Part shown: piece after piece, positions 5,237 through 58,893 of the stretch | Layout: each line of letters begins with the position of its first letter | Position numbering within the stretch: the stretch's first letter is position 1 | Assembly: GCF_988242995.1 (NCBI RefSeq) | Contig: NZ_OZ547043.1 | DNA length: 64,000 bases | Reading direction: 5' to 3' (one strand) | The notes under the pieces: generated by a model | The model's database searches: none | What the model was told of the DNA's origin: nothing | What the model saw: the letters and a program-made list of their open reading frames with translations, nothing else | Translations under genes and position numbers: made by a program

Positions 5237-8200
5237 ATGTCACGTTATAAAACAGGTCATAAACAACCACGATTTCGTTATTCAGTTCTGGCCCGCTGCG
5301 TGGCGTGGGCAAATATCTCTGTTCAGGTTCTTTTCCCACTCGCTGTCACCTTTACCCCAGTAATGGCGGCACGCGCGCAGCATGCGGTTCAGCCACGGTT
5401 GAGCATGGAAAATACTACGGTAGCTGCTGATAATAATGTGGAAAAAAATGTCGCGTCGTTTGCCGCAAATGCCGGGACATTTTTAAGCAGTCAGCCAGAT
5501 AGCGATGCGACACGTAACTTTATTACCGGAATGGCCACAGCTAAAGCTAACCAGGAAATACAGGAGTGGCTCGGGAAATATGGTACTGCGCGCGTCAAAC
5601 TGAATGTCGATAAAGATTTCTCGCTGAAGGATTCTTCGATGGAAATGCTTTATCCGATTTATGATACGCCGACAAATATGTTGTTCACTCAGGGGGCAAT
5701 ACATCGTACCGACGAGCGTACTCAGTCAAATATTGGTTTTGGCTGGCGTCATTTTTCAGAAAATGACTGGATGGCGGGGGTGAATACTTTTATCGATCAT
5801 GATTTATCCCGTAGTCATACCCGCATTGGTGTTGGTGCGGAATACTGGCGTGATTATTTGAAACTGAGCGCCAATGGTTATATCCGGGCTTCTGGCTGGA
5901 AAAAATCGCCGGATGTTGAGGATTATCAGGAACGCCCGGCGAATGGCTGGGATATTCGTGCTGAGGGCTATTTACCCGCCTGGCCGCAGCTTGGCGCAAG
6001 CCTGATGTATGAACAGTATTATGGCGATGAAGTCGGGCTGTTTGGTAAAGATAAACGCCAGAAAGATCCACATGCGATTACCGCTGAAGTGAATTACACG
6101 CCAGTGCCTCTTCTGACCCTGAGTGCTGGGCATAAGCAGGGCAAGAGTGGTGAGAATGACACTCGCTTTGGCCTGGAAGTTAATTATCGGATTGGCGAAC
6201 CTCTGGAAAAACAACTCGATACAGACAGCATTCGCGAGCGTCGAATGCTGGCAGGCAGCCGCTATGACCTGGTTGAGCGTAATAACAATATCGTTCTTGA
6301 GTATCGCAAATCTGAAGTGATCCGTATTGCTCTGCCTGAGCGTATTGAAGGCAAGGGCGGCCAGACGGTTTCCCTGGGGCTTGTGGTCAGCAAAGCAACT
6401 CACGGTCTGAAAAATGTGCAATGGGAAGCGCCGTCTTTGCTGGCCGCAGGCGGAAAAATTACGGGGCAGGGCAATCAGTGGCAAGTGACGCTCCCGGCTT
6501 ATCAGGCAGGCAAAGACAATTATTATGCGGTTTCAGCGATTGCCTACGATAACAAAGGCAATGCCTCGAAACGTGTGCAGACAGAAGTGGTTATTAGCGG
6601 AGCTGGTATGAGCGCCGATCGTACGGCGTTAACGCTTGACGGTCAGAGCCGTATTCAAATGCTTGCTAACGGTAATGAGCAAAAGCCGCTGGTGCTGTCT
6701 CTGCGCGACGCCGAGGGTCAGCCAGTCACGGGCATGAAAGATCAGATCAAGACTGAACTAACTTTCAAACCGGCTGGAAATATTGTGACTCGTTCTCTGA
6801 AGGCCACTAAATCACAGGCAAAGCCAACACTGGGTGAGTTCACCGAAACTGAAGCAGGGGTGTATCAGTCTGTCTTTACTACCGGAACGCAGTCAGGTGA
6901 GGCAACGATTACTGTTAGCGTTGATGACATGAGCAAAACTGTCACTGCAGAACTGCGGGCCACGATGATGGATGTGGCAAACTCCACCCTGAGCGCTAAC
7001 GAGCCGTCAGGTGATGTGGTTGCTGATGGTCAGCAAGCCTACACGCTGACACTGACAGCGGTGGACTCCGAGGGTAATCCGGTGACGGGAGAAGCCAGCC
7101 GCCTGCGACTTGTTCCGCAAGACACTAATGGTGTAACCGTTGGTGCCATTTCGGAAATAAAACCAGGGGTTTACAGCGCCACGGTTTCTTCGACCCGTGC
7201 CGGAAACGTTGTTGTGCGTGCCTTCAGCGAGCAGTATCAGCTGGGCACATTACAACAAACGCTGAAGTTTGTTGCAGGGCCGCTTGATGCAGCACATTCG
7301 TCCATCACCCTGAATCCTGATAAACCGGTGGTTGGCGGTACAGTTACGGCAATCTGGACGGCAAAAGATGCCTATGACAACCCTGTGACCAGCCTCACGC
7401 CGGAAGCGCCGTCATTAGCGGGGGCTGCGGCTGTAGGTTCTACAGCATCTGGCTGGACAAATAATGGTGATGGGACGTGGACTGCGCAGATTACTCTCGG
7501 CTCTACGGCGGGTGAATTAGAAGTTATGCCGAAGCTAAATGGACAGGATGCGGCAGCAAACGCGGCAAAAGTAACCGTGGTGGCTGATGCGTTATCTTCA
7601 AACCAGTCGAAAGTCTCTGTCGTAAAAGATCACGTAAAAGCCGGCGAAAGCACAACCGTGACGCTGGTGGCGAAAGATGCGCATGGCAACGCTATCAGTG
7701 GTCTTTCGTTGTCGGCAAGTTTGACGGGGACCGCCTCTGAAGGGGCGACTATTTCCAGTTGGACCGAAAAAGGTGACGGTTCCTATGTTGCTACGTTGAC
7801 TACAGGCGGAAAGACGGGCGAGCTTCGCGTCATGCCTCTCTTCAATGGCCAGCCAGCAGCCACCGAAGCCGCGCAGTTGACGGTCATCGCTGGAGAGATG
7901 TCATCAGCTAACTCTACGCTTGTTGCGGACAATAAGGCTCCGGTCGTCAAAACGACGACGGAACTCACCTTCACCGTGAAGGATGCGTACGGGAACCCGG
8001 TCACCGGGCTGAAGCCAGATGCACCAGTGTTTAGCGGTGCCGCCAGCACGGGGAGTGAGCGTCCTTCAGCAGGAAACTGGACAGAGAAAGGTAATGGGGT
8101 CTACGTGTCGACCTTAACGCTGGGATCTGCCGCGGGTCAGTTGTCTGTGATGCCACGCGTGAACGGCCTAAATGCCGTTGCTCAGCCACTGGTGCTGAAT

Positions 8201-15628: not shown

Positions 15629-16348
15629 GTGAATGTCAATTTCTTTGTCACCTGTATTGGTGACGCCCTGAAATCAAGAATGGCACGAGACTCCGTGCTG
15701 CTACTGGAAAAACTCGGCTGTCGCGTAAATTTCCCGGAGAAACAGGGATGCTGCGGTCAGCCTGCGATCAATAGTGGTTATATCAAAGAAGCGATTCCAG
15801 GGATGAAAAATCTGATCGCCGCACTGGAGGATAACGACGATCCCATTATTTCACCGGCTGGCTCTTGCACCTATGCCGTAAAAAGTTACCCGACGTATCT
15901 GGCGGATGAACCTGAATGGGCATCACGTGCCGAAAAGGTAGCCGCGCGTATGCAGGATCTCACCTCTTTTATTGTTAATACATTAGGGGTAGTCGATGTA
16001 GGTGCCAGTTTGCAAGGGAGAGCGGTGTATCACCCATCTTGTAGCCTGGCCCGTAAGCTGGGGGTGAAGGACGAGCCACTTATGCTGCTGAAAAATGTGC
16101 GTGGACTGGAGCTGTTGACCTTTGCTGAACAGGATACCTGCTGCGGATTTGGCGGCACGTTCTCGGTCAAAATGGCCGAAATATCCGGCGAGATGGTGAA
16201 AGAAAAGGTTGCGCACCTGATGGAAGTCCGCCCTGAGTATTTAATTAGTGCTGACGTGAGTTGCCTGCTGAACATCAGTGGGCGATTACAACGGGAAGGG
16301 CAGAAAGTCAAAGTAATGCATATTGCTGAAGTGCTGATGAGCCGCTGA
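15629..16348 (+). CDS. ykgE: LutA-like cysteine-rich (CCG-domain) Fe-S oxidoreductase subunit
   Basis: 239 aa, GTG start, MNVNFFVTCIGD..., paired CCG motifs. Confidence 0.8.
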   Translation: MNVNFFVTCIGDALKSRMARDSVLLLEKLGCRVNFPEKQGCCGQPAINSGYIKEAIPGMKNLIAALEDNDDPIISPAGSCTYAVKSYPTYLADEPEWASRAEKVAARMQDLTSFIVNTLGVVDVGASLQGRAVYHPSCSLARKLGVKDEPLMLLKNVRGLELLTFAEQDTCCGFGGTFSVKMAEISGEMVKEKVAHLMEVRPEYLISADVSCLLNISGRLQREGQKVKVMHIAEVLMSR

Positions 16349-16358
16349 GGATATAAAG

Positions 16359-17786
16359 ATGTCGATCAAAACCAGTAATACAGATTTTAAGACACGCATC
16401 CGTCAGCAAATTGAAGATCCTATCATGCGCAAAGCGGTGGCAAACGCGCAGCAGCGTATCGGGGCAAATCGGCAAAAAATGGTCGATGAATTGGGGCACT
16501 GGGAGGAGTGGCGCGATCGGGCCGCCCAGATACGTGATCATGTTCTGAGTAATCTCGACGCTTATCTGTACCAGCTCTCAGAAAAAGTGACGCAAAACGG
16601 CGGTCACGTCTATTTTGCAAAAACCAAAGAAGACGCTACCCGCTACATTTTACAGGTTGCCCAACGCAAAAATGCCCGGAAGGTGGTGAAATCTAAATCG
16701 ATGGTGACCGAAGAGATTGGTGTCAATCATGTGTTGCAGGATGCTGGCATTCAGGTGATTGAAACCGATCTGGGTGAATATATTCTCCAGCTGGATCAAG
16801 ATCCGCCCTCTCATGTTGTGGTCCCGGCAATTCATAAAGATCGCCATCAGATCCGTCGAGTGCTACACGAACGTCTGGGCTATGAGGGGCCGGAAACGCC
16901 TGAAGCGATGACCTTATTCATTCGGCAAAAAATCCGCGAAGATTTCCTCAGTGCTGAAATAGGTATTACCGGCTGTAATTTCGCGGTGGCAGAGACCGGT
17001 TCGGTATGCCTGGTGACCAATGAAGGTAATGCGCGAATGTGTACCACGCTGCCTAAAACGCATATTGCAGTGATGGGAATGGAGCGTATTGCTCCCACGT
17101 TTGCAGAGGTAGATGTATTGATCACCATGCTGGCGCGCAGTGCCGTTGGTGCACGTTTGACGGGATACAACACCTGGCTGACAGGACCACGCGAAGCGGG
17201 GCACGTTGATGGTCCTGAAGAGTTTCATCTGGTTATTGTCGATAACGGGCGTTCTGAGGTGCTGGCCTCTGAATTTCGGGATGTGCTGCGCTGTATTCGC
17301 TGCGGGGCTTGTATGAATACTTGTCCGGCATATCGCCATATTGGCGGTCATGGATATGGCTCTATTTATCCAGGGCCAATTGGTGCGGTGATTTCTCCGC
17401 TACTTGGCGGCTATAAAGATTTTAAAGATTTACCCTACGCCTGCTCTTTATGCACTGCTTGTGACAACGTGTGTCCGGTGCGTATTCCGCTATCAAAACT
17501 GATTTTGCGTCATCGTCGGGTGATGGCTGAAAAAGGGATCACCGCAAAAGCAGAGCAACGGGCGATAAAAATGTTCGCTTATGCCAATAGTCATCCAGGA
17601 TTGTGGAAAGTCGGGATGATGGCCGGTGCTCATGCGGCAAGCTGGTTTATCAATGGCGGCAAAACACCACTCAAATTTGGCGCGATTAGCGACTGGATGG
17701 AAGCACGCGATCTTCCTGAAGCTGACGGAGAGAGTTTCCGTAGTTGGTTTAAGAAACATCAGGCGCAGGAGAAAAAGAATGGATAA
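16359..17786 (+). CDS. ykgF: LutB-like iron-sulfur protein (4Fe-4S ferredoxin motifs)
   Basis: 475 aa; CIRCGACMNTCP and CSLCTACDNVCP ferredoxin-type motifs. Confidence 0.85.
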   Translation: MSIKTSNTDFKTRIRQQIEDPIMRKAVANAQQRIGANRQKMVDELGHWEEWRDRAAQIRDHVLSNLDAYLYQLSEKVTQNGGHVYFAKTKEDATRYILQVAQRKNARKVVKSKSMVTEEIGVNHVLQDAGIQVIETDLGEYILQLDQDPPSHVVVPAIHKDRHQIRRVLHERLGYEGPETPEAMTLFIRQKIREDFLSAEIGITGCNFAVAETGSVCLVTNEGNARMCTTLPKTHIAVMGMERIAPTFAEVDVLITMLARSAVGARLTGYNTWLTGPREAGHVDGPEEFHLVIVDNGRSEVLASEFRDVLRCIRCGACMNTCPAYRHIGGHGYGSIYPGPIGAVISPLLGGYKDFKDLPYACSLCTACDNVCPVRIPLSKLILRHRRVMAEKGITAKAEQRAIKMFAYANSHPGLWKVGMMAGAHAASWFINGGKTPLKFGAISDWMEARDLPEADGESFRSWFKKHQAQEKKNG

Positions 17787-18474
17787 TCGGAGCGAATTTT
17801 TGAATAACGTTGCTCAGGCACTGGGTCGCCCGCTGCGACTTGAACCGCAAGCAGAAGATGCGCCGCTTAACAACTATGCTAACGAGCGGCTTACCGAACT
17901 TAACCAAAAGCAGCGCTGTGACGCGTTTATTCAGTTTGCCAGCGATGTTATGTTGACGCGCTGTGAGCTGACCAGCGAGGCGAAGGCGGCAGAAGCTGCA
18001 ATACGTCTGTGTAAAGAGCTGGGAGATCAGTCGGTCGTGATTAGCGGTGACACGAGGCTGGAGGAATTGGGGATTAGCGAACGTTTGCAGCAGGAATGCA
18101 ATGCCGTTGTTTGGGATCCGGCGAAAGGTGCCGAGAATATCTCGCAGGCAGAGCAGGCTAAAGTGGGTGTCGTGTATGCTGAATATGGTTTAACCGAATC
18201 GGGAGGCGTGGTTCTTTTTTCCGCCGCCGGGCGCGGGCGTTCATTGAGCCTGCTCCCGGAATCTTCTCTTTTTATCCTGCGTAAAAGCACAATCCTACCG
18301 CGTGTAGCGCAACTTGCAGAAAAATTGCATCAGAAAGCGCAGGCCGGTGAACGAATGCCGTCATGTATTAACATCATCAGTGGTCCCAGTTCAACGGCGG
18401 ACATTGAGCTTATCAAAGTCGTCGGGGTTCATGGTCCGGTGAAAGCGGTGTATCTGATTATTGAGGATTGCTGA
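17779..18474 (+). CDS. ykgG: LutC-like protein
   Basis: ORF 17626..18474; start set to MDNRSEFLNN (ATG 17779), overlapping the ykgF stop. Confidence 0.8.
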   Translation: MDNRSEFLNNVAQALGRPLRLEPQAEDAPLNNYANERLTELNQKQRCDAFIQFASDVMLTRCELTSEAKAAEAAIRLCKELGDQSVVISGDTRLEELGISERLQQECNAVVWDPAKGAENISQAEQAKVGVVYAEYGLTESGGVVLFSAAGRGRSLSLLPESSLFILRKSTILPRVAQLAEKLHQKAQAGERMPSCINIISGPSSTADIELIKVVGVHGPVKAVYLIIEDC

Positions 18475-18716
18475 GAGAGATATGAAGTCTGGACATAAAC
18501 CTGAAGGCGGTGTACGAGGTTGTGAATAGCGTTAAGGACAACCTGACTTAACCCCGTTCCGTCATGGTTATGCTCCTCTTCTGTAAATATCCTGGCATTA
18601 CTAATGCCAGGATATTTAAAGTGAAAAAGACAGGCATCCATTCCTGAAAACGGGTTCCCTTCCCGGTCATTGTCACTATAGTTTTATACAGGCACTCTCT
18701 GTCAGAATGCTGTTTA

Positions 18717-18914
18717 TTACTGCCCAGAGTTTTGTTGGTATTCATCTACCATTTTTTTGACAAGGCAAAACATTACAGAAATCACAATGCTTAGAAAAAA
18801 TCCCAGAGCCAGGCAAATGGTAGCAGGGTATTTATTTTTTATTTCTGGTGAGCTTATAGTGACACAGCCATCACCGTTCGGATACAATGACCAGTTCCTG
18901 GTCAGGTATATCAT
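18717..18914 (-). CDS. small membrane ORF overlapping the ykgH stop (separate coupled gene or 3' part of frameshifted ykgH)
   Basis: 65-aa ORF, TM helix ATICLALGFFLSIVISVMFCLV, ATGA start/stop overlap with upstream ORF. Confidence 0.35.
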   Translation of the reverse strand: MIYLTRNWSLYPNGDGCVTISSPEIKNKYPATICLALGFFLSIVISVMFCLVKKMVDEYQQNSGQ

Positions 18915-19267
18915 TTTTGTACAGCAGTTGGTAAATCTCTCTTATCTCCTGACCATTCCAGTTTTATTTCTCTGTTCTTGACATCTGGGCTGGTGTGAAA
19001 AAATGTAGTAATTCGCTGAATAACATCTTCAGTCATTGTGGTCTGACAGGCAAAGTTATTATTGCTATCACAGCTAACAAGTATGCCTGGTGTTGTTTGG
19101 TTTATTTTTAGACTGTAAGTCACTTTTATATTATCTTTATTGATATACAGAAACAACAGCACCATTGCCATACAGATAGCTATAATAAAAAGGATAACAC
19201 GAATCTTTTTCTTCAGATAAAATAAAATCTCAATCAGATCGATATCCTGTTTGATTTGTTCACTCAT
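18911..19267 (-). CDS. ykgH: membrane protein (ykgH-like), possibly the 5' part of a frameshifted gene
   Basis: 118-aa ORF with one TM helix (VILFIIAICMAMVLLFLYI); stop TGA overlaps the next ATG in an ATGA junction beside an A5 run. Confidence 0.5.
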   Translation of the reverse strand: MSEQIKQDIDLIEILFYLKKKIRVILFIIAICMAMVLLFLYINKDNIKVTYSLKINQTTPGILVSCDSNNNFACQTTMTEDVIQRITTFFHTSPDVKNREIKLEWSGDKRDLPTAVQK

Positions 19268-19479
19268 AATATATCCAGAAAATAAAATCTGTCGCAGATA
19301 AGATTGTATTAATAGTCTGTATCAGGAATGTTCAGGGTAAATATCAGCAAAAAGCCAGCATCATGAATACTGGATATGAAGCATGAGAGTTACCTCAGTG
19401 TTTTATATAAGGATTCGGTCCTCATAGTAGAACGGTAACTCTCAATCTGATAGGTTCCTGAGTCAGTTCACATCACGAC

Positions 19480-21150
19480 TCATTTTTTCGCTCTCACCGG
19501 CATCCCATTTGCCACATAATATCCCGCCGTGCTCCTCGGCAACGCATCCTTCCCGCGAATCATATCCGCCATTTTCTCGCCAATCATAATAGTCGTGGCG
19601 TTCAAATTGCCGGTGATAATCTGCGGCATAATTGACGCATCTACCACGCGCAGGCCTTCCAGCCCGTGTACGCGGCCTTCGGCGTCAACCACTGCCATCT
19701 CGTCATAACCCATTTTGCAGGTACCGCACGGGTGGAAGGCGGTTTCGGCGTGGTTACGCACGAACTCATCGAGCTGCTCATCCGTCTGGCATTCGACACC
19801 GGGGCTGATTTCGCGGCCACGATACTGATCCAGCGCCGGTTGATGCATGATCTCCCGGGTGATGCGAATTGCGTCGCGGAACTCCTGCCAGTCCTGCTCG
19901 TGCGACATGTAGTTAAACAGAATCGCTGGATGCTGGTGCGGGTCGCGGGATTTAATCCGCACATGCCCACGGCTTGGCGAGCGCATCGATCCGACGTGGC
20001 ACTGGAAGCCGTGCTCTTTCACTGCGTTCGAGCCGTTATAGTTAATCGCCACTGGCAGGAAATGGTACTGAATATTCGGCCACGCAAATTCCTCACGGCT
20101 GCGAATAAATCCGCCTGCTTCAAAGTGGTTGCTGGCACCAACGCCGGTGCCGCCAAACAGCCACTCCGCACCGATTTTCGGCTGATTCCACCACTGCAGG
20201 GCAGGGTAGAGGGAAACCGGTTCTTTGCACTCATATTGCAGGTACATCTCCAGGTGATCCTGAAGATTTTCGCCGACGCCGGGTAAATCATGCACCAGCG
20301 GAATATCAAACTCCGCCAGCAGTTCAGCGCTACCCACGCCGGAACGTTGCAGGATCTGCGGAGAGGCGATCGCACCTGCACATAACAGCACCTCTTTATT
20401 CGCTGTCGCGCGGGTTGGAATGGTGCTGTCGCCTTCCAGCCACTCGACGCCCACCGCGCGTTTGCCGTCAAAAATGATGTGATCGGTCATGGCGTGAGTA
20501 CGAATGGTCAGGTTAGGGCGCGATTTGGCCTGATCGAGATAGCTACGCGCGGTGCTGGCGCGACGGCCATGCGGCGTGACGGTGCGATCCATCGGGCCAA
20601 AACCTTCCTGCTGATAGCCGTTGAGATCGTCCGTGCGCGGGTAGCCTGCCTGCACGCCCGCTTCAATCATCGCTTCAAACAGCGGATTGACGCCGGGTTT
20701 GGAGGTAGTGACGCTCACCGGGCCATCGCCACCGTGGTAGTCGTTCTCGCCTACATCGCGAGTCTCGGCCTTGCGGTAGTAGGGCAGGCAGTCGAGATAA
20801 CTCCAGTTCTCCAGACCGGGTTCTTGCGCCCAGTTATCGAGATCCAGCGCATTGCCACGGATGTAGCACATGCCGTTGATCAGTGATGACCCGCCAAGCC
20901 CCTTACCGCGTCCGCACTCCATGCGACGGTTGTTCATAAACGGTTCCGGTTCCGTCTCATAGGCCCAGTTATAGCGTTTACCCTGTAGCGGGAATGCCAG
21001 CGCGGCGGGCATCTGGGTGCGGAAGTCAAAGCGATAGTCCGGGCCGCCTGCTTCAAGCAGCAGCACGGTTGTGTTCGGATCTTCAGTCAGACGGGTAGCG
21101 AGAACGTTGCCGGCTGAGCCGGCACCAATAATGATGTAGTCAAATTGCAA
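19480..21150 (-). CDS. betA: choline dehydrogenase (GMC oxidoreductase)
   Basis: ORF 19480..21195; [15 protein letters not shown] motif; GGAGG then TTG at 21150-21148 gives 556 aa. Confidence 0.9.
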
Positions 21151-21163
21151 ATAAACCTCCTGG

Positions 21164-22636
21164 TTAGAATATGGACTGGAATTTAGCCATCTCAACCTGG
21201 ATGGACTTCACCTGGGTGTAACTCTGGAGCGTCATCACGCCGTTCTCGCGACCAATGCCGGAGTGTTTGTAGCCGCCAACGGGCATCTCAGCAGGGGATT
21301 CGCCCCAGGTGTTGATCCAGCAAATACCCGCTTCCAGCTGATGAATGACGCGATGCGCGCGGTTCAGGTCCGCCGTCACGATGCCCGCCGCCAGGCCGTA
21401 GTCGGTATCATTGGCGCGGCGAATCACTTCGTCCTCAGATTCATAAGTGAGAAGCGACATCACCGGACCGAAGATCTCTTCGCGCACGATGGTCATTTCG
21501 TCGCGGCAATCGGTGAACACGGTCGGTGCAACCCATGCGCCGTTATCGAAGCCATCGCCTTTCAGTACATCGCCGCCGCACAGTACGCGCGCGCCTTCCT
21601 CTTTGCCTTTGGCGATGTAACGCAGCACGTTATCGCGATGCGGGAAGCTGACCAGCGGGCCAAAGTTAGTTTGCGGATCGAAAACGTCGCCCGCGCGAAT
21701 GCGCTCAACGCGCGCCAGAATCTTTTGTTCAAATGCGGCTTTGCATTTCGCCGGAACGAAGACGCGGGTGCCGTTGGTACACACCTGACCGGAGCTGAAG
21801 AAGTTCGCCATCATGGCGATATCAGCGGCGAGATCGAGATCTGCATCGTCGAAAACGATCAGCGGCGATTTACCGCCCAGCTCCATGGTCACTTCTTTCA
21901 GGGAGGAAGCTGCCGAGTTAGCCATCACTTTTTTGCCGCTGGCGACACCGCCGGTAAATGACACTTTGGCAATGCCCGGATGATCGGTCAGATATTGCCC
22001 GGTCTCCGCGCCCACGCCCGGCAACACGTTAAATACACCGTCCGGCAGGCCCGCTTCGCTGTAAATTTCAGCCAGCTTTAACGCGGTAAGCGGGGTGACT
22101 TCGCTCGGTTTGAAGATCATTGCATTGCCTGCCGCCAGCGCCGGGGCGGATTTCCACAGGGCAATCTGGATCGGGTAGTTCCATGCGCCAATCCCTGCCA
22201 CTACGCCCAGCGGTTCGCGGCGGGTATAGACAAATGACGTCTCACGCAATGGGATCTGGCTGCCTTCCAGCGACGGGATCAGCCCGGCGTAGTACTCGAG
22301 CACGTCCGCGCCGGTAACGATATCGACGGTTGAGGTTTCCGAATACGCTTTTCCGGTGTCGAGGGTTTCCAGTTTTGCGAGTTCGTTATTGCGTTCACGC
22401 AGAATATCAACGGCCCGACGCAGAATACGCGAGCGTTCCATAGCGGTCATCGCCGCCCAGATTTTTTGCCCCTGTTGGGCACTCTTCACGGCGCGATCGA
22501 CATCCTCACGCCCGGCGGCCTGCACGGTCGCCAGCACGTTACCGTTGGCCGGGTTAATGGTCTCGAAGGTGCGACCGCTGGTGGCGGAGGTATAACCACC
22601 ATGTATATAAAGCTGCTGTTCTGCCATTCGGGACAT
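21164..22636 (-). CDS. betB: betaine aldehyde dehydrogenase
   Basis: ORF 21164..22639; [15 protein letters not shown]...; aldehyde dehydrogenase family. Confidence 0.9.
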
Positions 22637-58181: not shown

Positions 58182-58893
58182 GTGCACAGAAAACCCCCAG
58201 CTAGGCTGGGGGTTCCGGAAAGCTTTCAGCTTTGAGCCAGTTATTAAAACCCCTTTTGATTTGTTAAAACACCTTGCGGTCTGGCAACTGCAAGTGTCAA
58301 ACAAGAAATCAAAAGGGGGTCCCAATGGGGAACGAAAAGAGCTTAGCGCACACCCGATGGAACTGTAAATATCACATAGTTTTTGCGCCAAAATACCGAA
58401 GACAGGTGTTCTACAGAGAGAAGCGTAGAGCAATAGGCAGTATTTTGAGAAAGCTGTGTGAGTGGAAAAGCGTACGGATTCTGGAAGCTGAATGCTGTGC
58501 AGATCATATCCATATGCTTGTGGAGATCCCGCCCAAAATGAGCGTATCCGGGTTTATGGGATATCTGAAAGGGAAAAGCAGTCTGATGCTTTACGAGCAG
58601 TTTGGTGATTTGAAATTCAAATACAGGAACAGGGAGTTCTGGTGCAGAGGGTACTACGTCGATACAGTGGGTAAGAACACGGCGAAGATACAGGATTACA
58701 TAAAGCACCAGCTTGAAGAGGATAAAATGGGAGAGCAGTTATCGATTCCCTATCCGGGCAGCCCGTTTACGGGCCGTAAGTAACGAAGTTGGATGCAAAT
58801 GTCAGATCGTGTGCGCCTGTTAGGGCGCGGCTGGTAAGAGAGCCTTATAGGCGCATTTGAAAAACCTCCGGCTATGCCGGAGGATATTTATTT
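58182..58893 (+). mobile_element. IS200 (IS200/IS605 family) insertion element, ~712 bp
   Basis: Carries a 152-aa tnpA, left-end hairpin aaacccccagctaggctgggggtt and right-end hairpin cctccggctatgccggagg; precisely interrupts cynX with no evident target duplication. Confidence 0.85.
58325..58783 (+). CDS. tnpA: IS200 transposase TnpA (HUH Y1 transposase)
   Basis: ORF 58274..58783; MGNEKSLAHTRWNCKYHIVFAPKYRRQVFY...HIHMLVEIPPK (HuH motif)...YYVDTVG (catalytic Tyr region); matches recalled Salmonella IS200 TnpA. Confidence 0.9.
   Translation: MGNEKSLAHTRWNCKYHIVFAPKYRRQVFYREKRRAIGSILRKLCEWKSVRILEAECCADHIHMLVEIPPKMSVSGFMGYLKGKSSLMLYEQFGDLKFKYRNREFWCRGYYVDTVGKNTAKIQDYIKHQLEEDKMGEQLSIPYPGSPFTGRK

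What the first reader, a model, noticed from the sequence alone, without database searches (positions are those of the whole stretch)
18717..19267. ykgH region reads as two ORFs joined by an ATGA overlap next to an A5 tract
A 118-aa and a 65-aa membrane ORF overlap by 4 nt (CAAAAATGATATAC). Adding one A in the run would fuse them into a single 183-aa protein. This is either a frameshifted gene, a slippage-prone site, or a genuinely translationally coupled pair.
Basis: seen in the sequence. Interest (0 to 1): 0.3.

Follow-up and report, generated by a model that had tools for sequence, protein, structure and literature searches.

The report
ykgH broken by 118-bp deletion
The two overlapping small ORFs are the two halves of the E. 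coli membrane-protein gene ykgH, split by a 118-base internal deletion rather than a slip in the A-run; this is an ordinary lineage-specific pseudogene that RefSeq already annotates as 'frameshifted'.

Summary
On the minus strand a 118-aa ORF (19267..18911) and a 65-aa ORF (18914..18717) overlap by ATGA, next to an A5 run (18918..18914).

The proposed cause is wrong. Intact ykgH is 669 bp (222 aa), not 183 aa. The window lacks 118 bp (CDS nt 347-464, codons 116-155), and the breakpoint lies 3 nt upstream of the A-run (junction 18922|18921). The A-run is A5 in the intact alleles too, where it reads in frame as Thr-Lys-Met. The ATGA overlap is a by-product: the shifted frame meets TGA across the old Met158 codon.

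- **Frequency:** the junction occurs in 4 of 5,426 complete E. coli genomes, all annotated by PGAP as a 551-bp 'frameshifted' pseudogene. The exact 118-aa product is on 636 or more public contigs.
- **Origin:** carriers share one haplotype block with divergent flanks, which points to a single deletion event followed by recombination.
- **No repair seen:** no assembly encodes the 183-aa fused product.
- **Homologues:** distant relatives (20-28% identity) are single collinear ORFs of 211-229 aa.
- **Other lesions:** O157:H7 carries an independent Q139* nonsense allele (308 genomes).

As a side result, intact YkgH models as a short polysaccharide co-polymerase (Wzz/Wzc/KpsE-like) fold, and the deletion removes most of its periplasmic helical hairpin. 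Interest is low.

The parts
18717..19267 (-). ykgH pseudogene remnant (551 bp; the intact gene is 669 bp, 222 aa)
   Evidence: Collinear with K-12 and MS21324 ykgH at 96-98% identity apart from a 118-bp gap. The identical 551-bp span is annotated 'hypothetical protein, frameshifted' (pseudogene) by PGAP in KE55, NRZ14408 and isolate 362.
18911..19267 (-). ORF1: YkgH codons 1-115 (N-terminal TM helix plus the first part of the periplasmic domain), then 3 out-of-frame codons (Val-Gln-Lys) and TGA
   Evidence: Protein alignment; hydropathy puts TM1 at about residues 22-42; the exact 118-aa product P0002 is on 636 or more public contigs.
18921..18922 (-). Deletion junction: 118 bp (CDS nt 347-464, codon 116 position 2 to codon 155 position 2) are missing between these two bases
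   Evidence: DNA alignment A1; breakpoint script found 0 bp of microhomology; the junction 44-mer occurs in only 4 of 5,426 complete genomes.
18914..18918 (-). A5 run. It has the normal length and in intact alleles is read in frame as ACA-AAA-ATG (Thr156-Lys157-Met158)
   Evidence: The run length is 5 in the window, K-12, MS21324, KE55 and all 9 deletion carriers.
18911..18914 (-). ATGA overlap: the former internal Met158 codon, overlapped by the first stop codon of the shifted frame
   Evidence: Read directly from the sequence and the alignment.
18717..18914 (-). ORF2: YkgH codons 158-222 in the original frame (end of the periplasmic domain plus the C-terminal TM helix). It carries the A189T change specific to the window and L010 (base 18821)
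   Evidence: 98% identical to the YkgH C-terminus; TM2 at ORF2 residues 28-57; no Shine-Dalgarno pairing upstream (duplex energy +0.6 kcal/mol); not called as a gene in L006-L010.
18882..18909 (-). Local RNA hairpin starting 2 nt after the ORF1 stop. It is part of the normal ykgH coding sequence
   Evidence: Fold of 18910..18830, z-score -2.6. In the 4-sequence alignment the stretch differs by only one base, in MS21324.
18581..18621 (.). 41-bp perfect palindrome between the convergent genes ykgH and ykgG (likely a bidirectional terminator or 3'UTR hairpin)
   Evidence: Self reverse-complement BLAST match; strong hairpin, region z-score -5.3; no Rfam family.

Best explanation
The region is a pseudogene of ykgH, a gene for a two-TM inner-membrane protein found essentially only in Escherichia. 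One 118-bp internal deletion removed codons 116-155 and shifted the reading frame. Translation from the native start therefore runs through 115 native codons and 3 out-of-frame codons, then stops at a TGA that overlaps the old Met158 codon. The rest of the original frame, from Met158 onward, shows up mechanically as a second 65-aa ORF. The A5 run is the normal wild-type sequence that happens to sit 3 nt from the breakpoint. The deletion arose once and has since been carried into different flanking backgrounds by homologous recombination. The gene is most likely non-functional: the missing segment forms most of the predicted periplasmic helical hairpin, and the two TM helices now lie on separate polypeptides, the second of which lacks a ribosome-binding site. 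Shown directly: the deletion, its frame consequence, its rarity and its shared haplotype. Inferred: loss of function.
For: - **Deletion:** 118-bp gap against K-12 and MS21324, with otherwise collinear sequence at 96-98% identity.
- **A-run:** length 5 in intact and deleted alleles alike.
- **Frequency and annotation:** the junction 44-mer is in 4 of 5,426 complete genomes, each annotated as a frameshifted pseudogene.
- **Real allele:** the exact 118-aa product is on 636 or more contigs, and L010 matches the window at 6,356 of 6,357 bp.
- **Single origin:** all carriers share an SNP-free block from mid-betA to about 90 bp past the junction, with flanks 1-2% divergent.
- **Ancestral state:** the segment is present in the most divergent full-length Escherichia homologue (80% identity, 222 aa) and in 7 distant homologues of 211-229 aa. 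The near-invariant W129 lies inside the deleted part.
- **What was lost:** in the AlphaFold model (pLDDT 81) residues 116-155 cover most of helix 109-143, helix 147-150 and the start of helix 153-167.
- **No Shine-Dalgarno sequence** before ORF2.
- **Dispensability:** an independent nonsense allele (Q139*) is present in 308 of 5,426 genomes, including O157:H7 Sakai. About 5% of genomes have no match at all. ykgH is used as a chromosomal integration site and its locus is poorly expressed (PMC8497626).
Against: Loss of function is inferred and not measured. ORF1 keeps its native start, TM1 and 115 native residues, so a truncated protein could still be made. The ATGA overlap could allow some termination-reinitiation. 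The A_AAA_UGA context plus a hairpin just downstream could allow a little -1 frameshifting. The allele persists in hundreds of assemblies, so it is at least not strongly deleterious.
Confidence: 0.93

Rival explanations
1. Homopolymer frameshift, or a sequencing or assembly error: one A was lost from an original A6 run, and the true gene encodes a 183-aa protein.
For: Adding one A does fuse the two ORFs in silico.
Against: Intact alleles have A5, not A6, and encode 222 aa. All 9 independent carriers have A5. The 183-aa fused protein is absent from a 15-billion-protein collection in both sequence variants. The only 183-aa cluster member is an N-terminally cut fragment of the intact protein.
Confidence: 0.01
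2. Recoding site: the ribosome slips -1 on A_AAA with UGA in the A site (or RNA polymerase slips on the A-run). This would yield a 183-aa protein that joins both halves, so the allele would keep partial function.
For: Lys-tRNA can re-pair perfectly after a -1 shift (AAA to AAA), and a stop codon in the A site favours slippage (general knowledge of 'shifty stops'). A hairpin starts 2 nt after the stop, z-score -2.6.
Against: The context was created by accident in a rare allele (4 of 5,426 genomes). The hairpin and the A-run are ordinary coding sequence, also present in intact alleles, so nothing has been selected for recoding. A5 is below the run length usually needed for efficient transcriptional slippage (general knowledge). 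The product would still lack 39 residues, including the family's best-conserved W129. The window sub-lineage carries a replacement (A189T) at a near-invariant TM2 position.
Confidence: 0.04
3. A genuine two-gene operon: the halves are translationally coupled through ATGA and reassemble as a split membrane protein.
For: ATGA overlaps are typical of coupled genes, and each half keeps one TM helix.
Against: The split is not conserved. The 222-aa single-ORF layout is the dominant form in E. coli, where 35 of 40 genomes sampled evenly down the ranking carry a 'protein YkgH' annotation, and all 7 distant full-length homologues are single ORFs. There is no Shine-Dalgarno sequence. Gene callers ignore ORF2 in all 5 carrier loci inspected (L006-L010). 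39 residues of the fold's core helices are missing.
Confidence: 0.02

Closest known systems
ykgH (b0310) of E. coli K-12, 'protein YkgH', predicted inner-membrane protein
   Same: Same locus between betA and ykgG. 93-98% amino-acid identity over both fragments.
   Different: 118 bp (codons 116-155) are deleted and the frame is shifted, giving 118-aa and 65-aa fragments in place of 222 aa.
PGAP-annotated 'hypothetical protein, frameshifted' pseudogenes U8P18_RS17760 (KE55), ABS748_RS21525 (NRZ14408) and LQ124_RS17865 (isolate 362)
   Same: Identical deletion junction, identical 551-bp extent and the same neighbours.
   Different: The window differs by one SNP inside the remnant (A189T, base 18821) and by a cluster of SNPs in the ykgH-ykgG spacer and flanks.
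O157:H7 Sakai ykgH pseudogene ECs_0348
   Same: The same gene, also inactivated in a natural lineage.
   Different: A different and independent lesion: the nonsense codon Q139* (CAA to TAA), found in 308 of 5,426 genomes.
Polysaccharide co-polymerases (PCP: Wzz/WzzE, Wzc, KpsE)
   Same: The intact parent protein has the PCP topology: TM helix, periplasmic alpha/beta base with a helical hairpin, then a second TM helix. Roughly the top 36 Foldseek hits in the PDB are all PCPs (6rbg E 4e-5, TM-score normalised to the query about 0.4-0.5). Weak Wzz N-terminal matches appear in Pfam and the PDB. A distant homologue passes the Pfam GNVR threshold.
   Different: It is much shorter (222 aa against about 320-720 aa). 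E. coli YkgH is below the Pfam gathering score for both Wzz and GNVR. There are no polysaccharide synthesis or export genes next to it. The window copy lacks the helical hairpin.

Membership tests
YkgH (E. coli b0310 orthologue) | High collinear sequence identity to YkgH | tested here: met
   ORF1 is 93% and ORF2 98% identical to K-12 YkgH. DNA identity is 96-98% outside the gap.
YkgH (E. coli b0310 orthologue) | Position between betA (or the autotransporter island) and ykgG | tested here: met
   betA at 21195..19480 and ykgG ending at 18474 flank the remnant, the same order as in K-12.
YkgH (E. coli b0310 orthologue) | Single uninterrupted ORF of about 222 aa (a functional member) | tested here: not met
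   A 118-bp deletion with a frameshift. It is therefore a pseudogene of the family and not a functional member.
Programmed frameshift or transcriptional-slippage gene (dnaX, prfB, IS3-type) | Two-frame layout conserved among orthologues | tested here: not met
   Found only in the deletion lineage (4 of 5,426 genomes). All full-length homologues are single-frame.
Programmed frameshift or transcriptional-slippage gene (dnaX, prfB, IS3-type) | Slippery motif and a stimulatory element in the right register | tested here: inconclusive
   A_AAA_UGA allows -1 re-pairing of Lys-tRNA, and a hairpin with z-score -2.6 starts 2 nt after the stop. Both are ordinary coding sequence shared with intact alleles. 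There is no X_XXY_YYZ heptamer, and an A-run of 5 is short for RNA polymerase slippage.
Programmed frameshift or transcriptional-slippage gene (dnaX, prfB, IS3-type) | A trans-frame protein is actually produced | not testable with these tools
   This needs a reporter assay, a Western blot or proteomics. At the DNA level no fused 183-aa gene exists in the public collection.
Translationally coupled gene pair (ATGA overlap) | Both cistrons conserved as separate genes in relatives | tested here: not met
   Relatives encode one polypeptide.
Translationally coupled gene pair (ATGA overlap) | Ribosome-binding site or other initiation signal for the downstream cistron | tested here: not met
   Best anti-Shine-Dalgarno duplex upstream of the ORF2 ATG is +0.6 kcal/mol.
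Polysaccharide co-polymerase (PCP) superfamily - the intact parent protein | N- and C-terminal TM helices flanking a periplasmic domain | tested here: met
   Hydropathy segments at about 22-42 and 188-210. The model has helices 22-42 and 188-220.
Polysaccharide co-polymerase (PCP) superfamily - the intact parent protein | Pfam Wzz (PF02706) or GNVR (PF13807) at or above the gathering score | tested here: not met
   Wzz scores 18.5-22.7 bits against a cut-off of 25.5, in 10 of 11 members. GNVR scores 10.6 bits in K-12 YkgH. Only the distant homologue P0090 passes GNVR (33.2 against 27.7).
Polysaccharide co-polymerase (PCP) superfamily - the intact parent protein | PCP fold (alpha/beta base plus periplasmic helical hairpin) | tested here: met
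   Foldseek against the PDB: ranks 1-36 are all Wzz, Wzc, WzzE or KpsE, with best E 4e-5, probability about 1.0 for the top hits and query-normalised TM-scores mostly 0.3-0.5. The model has pLDDT 81. The strength is moderate and it rests on a predicted model.
Polysaccharide co-polymerase (PCP) superfamily - the intact parent protein | Genomic association with polysaccharide polymerase or export genes | tested here: not met
   The neighbours are betA and ykgEFG. In other lineages, and in one distant homologue, the neighbour is an autotransporter.

The most novel reading that the evidence does not exclude
The deletion happens to place A_AAA_UGA directly upstream of a pre-existing hairpin. A measurable fraction of ribosomes might therefore shift -1 and make a 183-aa YkgH lacking 39 residues, with both TM helices, that keeps some activity. 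Alternatively the two halves might co-assemble. Separately, intact YkgH may be an unrecognised 'mini' polysaccharide co-polymerase that works with the neighbouring autotransporter island and not with a polysaccharide pathway.
Probability: 0.04. Interest if true: 0.3.

Novelty: already known. Interest (0 to 1): 0.06.

Why it matters
It matters little. This is a routine case of gene decay in a poorly expressed, AT-rich, dispensable E. coli accessory gene, and reference annotation already flags the same allele as a frameshifted pseudogene.

It has two practical uses. First, it is a cautionary example: an ATGA overlap beside a homopolymer looks like a slippage site, but comparison with intact alleles shows a larger deletion. 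Second, the 118-bp junction is a clean lineage marker that also reveals a local recombination mosaic.

The side observation that intact YkgH has a short PCP-like fold, and is sometimes linked to an autotransporter, gives a modest functional lead for a protein of unknown function.

Tried and rejected
- **Family libraries:** NCBIfam found nothing meaningful for either ORF. Pfam gave only sub-threshold matches.
- **Breakpoint repeats:** a search for microhomology or direct repeats at the deletion breakpoints found 0 bp of microhomology and only chance 4-mers, so the deletion mechanism is unexplained.
- **The 183-aa cluster member P0005** looked like the predicted fused protein. It is an N-terminally truncated fragment of the intact protein that still contains the deleted segment.
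- **First AlphaFold run:** with only Escherichia sequences it gave pLDDT 46 and was discarded without a fold search. The second run, with distant homologues added, was usable.
- **PDB sequence and profile searches** gave only a marginal N-terminal Wzz hit.
- **Rfam** found no RNA family in the region.
- **Promoter and terminator scan** gave only weak consensus matches, which I did not rely on.
- **Genomic context of distant homologues** was mostly on contigs too short to be informative.
- **Sakai allele length:** the 797-bp (not 799-bp) match is a 2-bp indel upstream of the CDS. It is not the lesion; the lesion is a nonsense codon.

Full report
**1. The observation**

On the minus strand of the window there are two ATG-initiated ORFs, 19267..18911 (118 aa) and 18914..18717 (65 aa). 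The minus strand reads ...CCAACTGCTGTACAAAAATGATATACC.... The ORF1 stop (TGA, 18913..18911) and the ORF2 start (ATG, 18914..18912) overlap as ATGA. The A of that ATG is the last base of an A5 run (18918..18914). Inserting one A in silico joins the ORFs into 183 aa. Each ORF contains one strongly hydrophobic segment. The description is therefore accurate.

**2. What it really is**

A megablast of the region against 5,426 complete E. coli genomes matched 5,161 of them. In nearly all, the 681-bp query was spread over 799 bp in two pieces. Alignment with K-12 MG1655 and with the closest intact allele (MS21324) shows that the window lacks 118 consecutive bases and is otherwise collinear.

- In those genomes ykgH is a single 669-bp, 222-aa CDS.
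- ORF1 equals YkgH residues 1-115 plus three out-of-frame codons (Val-Gln-Lys). ORF2 equals residues 158-222.
- The deletion covers CDS nt 347-464, from codon 116 position 2 to codon 155 position 2. Because 118 = 3 x 39 + 1, it shifts the frame.
- The junction lies between window bases 18922 and 18921, 3 nt upstream of the A-run.
- The run is A5 in K-12 and MS21324 too, where it is read in frame as ACA-AAA-ATG (Thr156-Lys157-Met158).

The A-run is therefore wild type and is not the lesion. The ATGA overlap arises because the shifted frame meets TGA across the former Met158 codon. ORF2 is simply the remainder of the original frame, starting from its first Met.

**3. Is the deletion real, and which state is ancestral?**

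A 44-mer centred on the junction cannot seed a megablast hit unless the junction is present. It matched 4 of 5,426 genomes: KE55, two assemblies of NRZ14408, and isolate 362. In KE55, one NRZ14408 assembly and isolate 362 (the three inspected), PGAP annotates a 551-bp 'hypothetical protein, frameshifted' pseudogene with exactly the extent of the finding.

The exact 118-aa product is present on 636 or more contigs from NCBI, ENA, JGI and Logan. One metagenome scaffold (L010) differs from the window by 1 base in 6,357. All nine carrier loci have the identical junction and an A5 run.

SNP maps show that carriers share an SNP-free block from the 3' half of betA to about 90 bp past the junction. 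Their flanks differ by 1-2%. This is the signature of one deletion event followed by homologous recombination, not of recurrent deletion.

The long form is ancestral. The segment is present in the most divergent full-length Escherichia homologue (80% identity, 222 aa). It is also present in seven distant homologues (20-28% identity, 211-229 aa), which are single collinear ORFs. The near-invariant W129 lies inside the deleted stretch.

**4.

- **Lost A, or sequencing error:** refuted by section 2. In addition, the fused 183-aa protein is not in the 15-billion-protein collection in either sequence variant. The one 183-aa cluster member is an N-terminally truncated fragment of the intact protein.
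- **Coupled gene pair:** the split is confined to the deletion lineage. There is no Shine-Dalgarno complementarity before the ORF2 ATG (+0.6 kcal/mol). Gene callers do not call ORF2 in the carrier loci.
- **Slippage-prone site:** A5 is short for transcriptional slippage (general knowledge). A -1 P-site slip of Lys-tRNA on A_AAA with UGA in the A site is chemically plausible, and a hairpin begins 2 nt after the stop (z-score -2.6). But both the A-run and the hairpin are ordinary ykgH coding sequence shared with intact alleles. Any frameshifting would therefore be fortuitous, and the product would still lack 39 residues.

**5. What the gene was, and what the deletion removes**

YkgH homologues found by word-indexed search are all Escherichia proteins without Pfam domains. 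Sub-threshold Wzz N-terminal matches recur in 10 of 11 members. A profile search of the PDB gives only the N-terminus of Wzz 6rbg (E 0.0019). One distant homologue passes the Pfam GNVR threshold.

An AlphaFold model built with the distant homologues reached pLDDT 81 and pTM 0.65. Its layout is TM helix 22-42, a small alpha/beta base, a long helix 109-143 followed by helices 147-150 and 153-167, then TM helix 188-220. In a Foldseek search of the PDB, roughly the top 36 hits are all polysaccharide co-polymerases: Wzz, WzzE, Wzc and KpsE, with best E 4e-5 and query-normalised TM-scores mostly 0.3-0.5.

I read intact YkgH as a short PCP-like protein. It fails the Pfam thresholds and has no polysaccharide genes nearby, so I do not file it as a confirmed member of that family. 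The deleted residues 116-155 make up most of the periplasmic helical hairpin. Together with the frameshift, this makes loss of function the most likely outcome (an inference).

**6. Dispensability of ykgH**

- O157:H7 Sakai carries an independent nonsense mutation, Q139*. The same allele is in 308 of 5,426 genomes.
- About 5% of genomes have no match to the region at all.
- The locus is AT-rich, with GC 0.32-0.40 against 0.5-0.6 in the flanks.
- Engineering papers use it as a chromosomal integration site, and reporter expression there is about 4-fold reduced (PMC8497626).
- The function of the protein is still described only as a 'predicted inner membrane protein' (bioRxiv 10.1101/2024.11.06.622226).

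**7. Verdict**

This is an ordinary lineage-specific pseudogene that RefSeq already annotates, so it counts as already known, with interest of about 0.06. The residual novel reading, fortuitous recoding or a functional split protein, has a probability of about 0.04.

Noticed in passing
window 18581-18621: A 41-bp perfect palindrome lies in the spacer between the convergent genes ykgH and ykgG. It forms a very stable hairpin (region z-score -5.3) and matches no Rfam family. A RIL-seq study (PMC8175672) listed the ykgH 3'UTR as an sRNA candidate with read accumulation, but could not verify it by northern blot.
   Followed up: partly
window about 15900-22270 compared with L002 and L004-L010: Carriers of the deletion share an SNP-free block from mid-betA to about 90 bp past the junction. 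They diverge by 1-2% on both sides, and one recombination breakpoint (in L008) lies only about 30 bp downstream of the junction. This is a local recombination mosaic around a single-origin deletion.
   Followed up: yes
L011 (O157:H7 Sakai) 776-778; ykgH codon 139: An independent inactivation of ykgH by a CAA-to-TAA nonsense codon (Q139*). It is present in 308 of 5,426 complete genomes, and the sampled hits are labelled 'ykgH: protein YkgH'.
   Followed up: yes
L003 (MS21324) 1-1380; L011 (Sakai) 1-180; L014 1-4581; window 19268-19479: In some E. coli lineages a large autotransporter gene (hyxB, or ECs_0349/0350) lies directly upstream of ykgH. A distant YkgH homologue (28% identity) also lies about 1.4 kb downstream of a 1,608-aa autotransporter. 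In the window and in K-12 the island is absent and betA abuts ykgH. This may point to a functional link, and to a reason why an orphaned ykgH decays.
   Followed up: partly
intact YkgH (L001 1564-2232; model m2c7ea5e8cd52): Intact YkgH, a protein of unknown function, models with good confidence as a short (222 aa) polysaccharide co-polymerase-like fold. Its best PDB matches are Wzz, Wzc, WzzE and KpsE, although it falls below the Pfam Wzz and GNVR thresholds.
   Followed up: partly
window 18821: A replacement specific to the window and L010, A189T, at a nearly invariant position in TM2 of the 3' fragment. It fits relaxed constraint after pseudogenisation, but it is a single data point.
   Followed up: no
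window 58192-58315 (+): A full-length Rfam match to the Hfq-binding sRNA STnc490 (146 bits). This is an ordinary known feature, unrelated to the finding.
   Followed up: no
window 19355-19373 (-): A terminator-like hairpin followed by a T-run about 105 nt downstream of the betA stop codon. It is probably the betA terminator, lying just upstream of the AT-rich ykgH promoter region.
   Followed up: no
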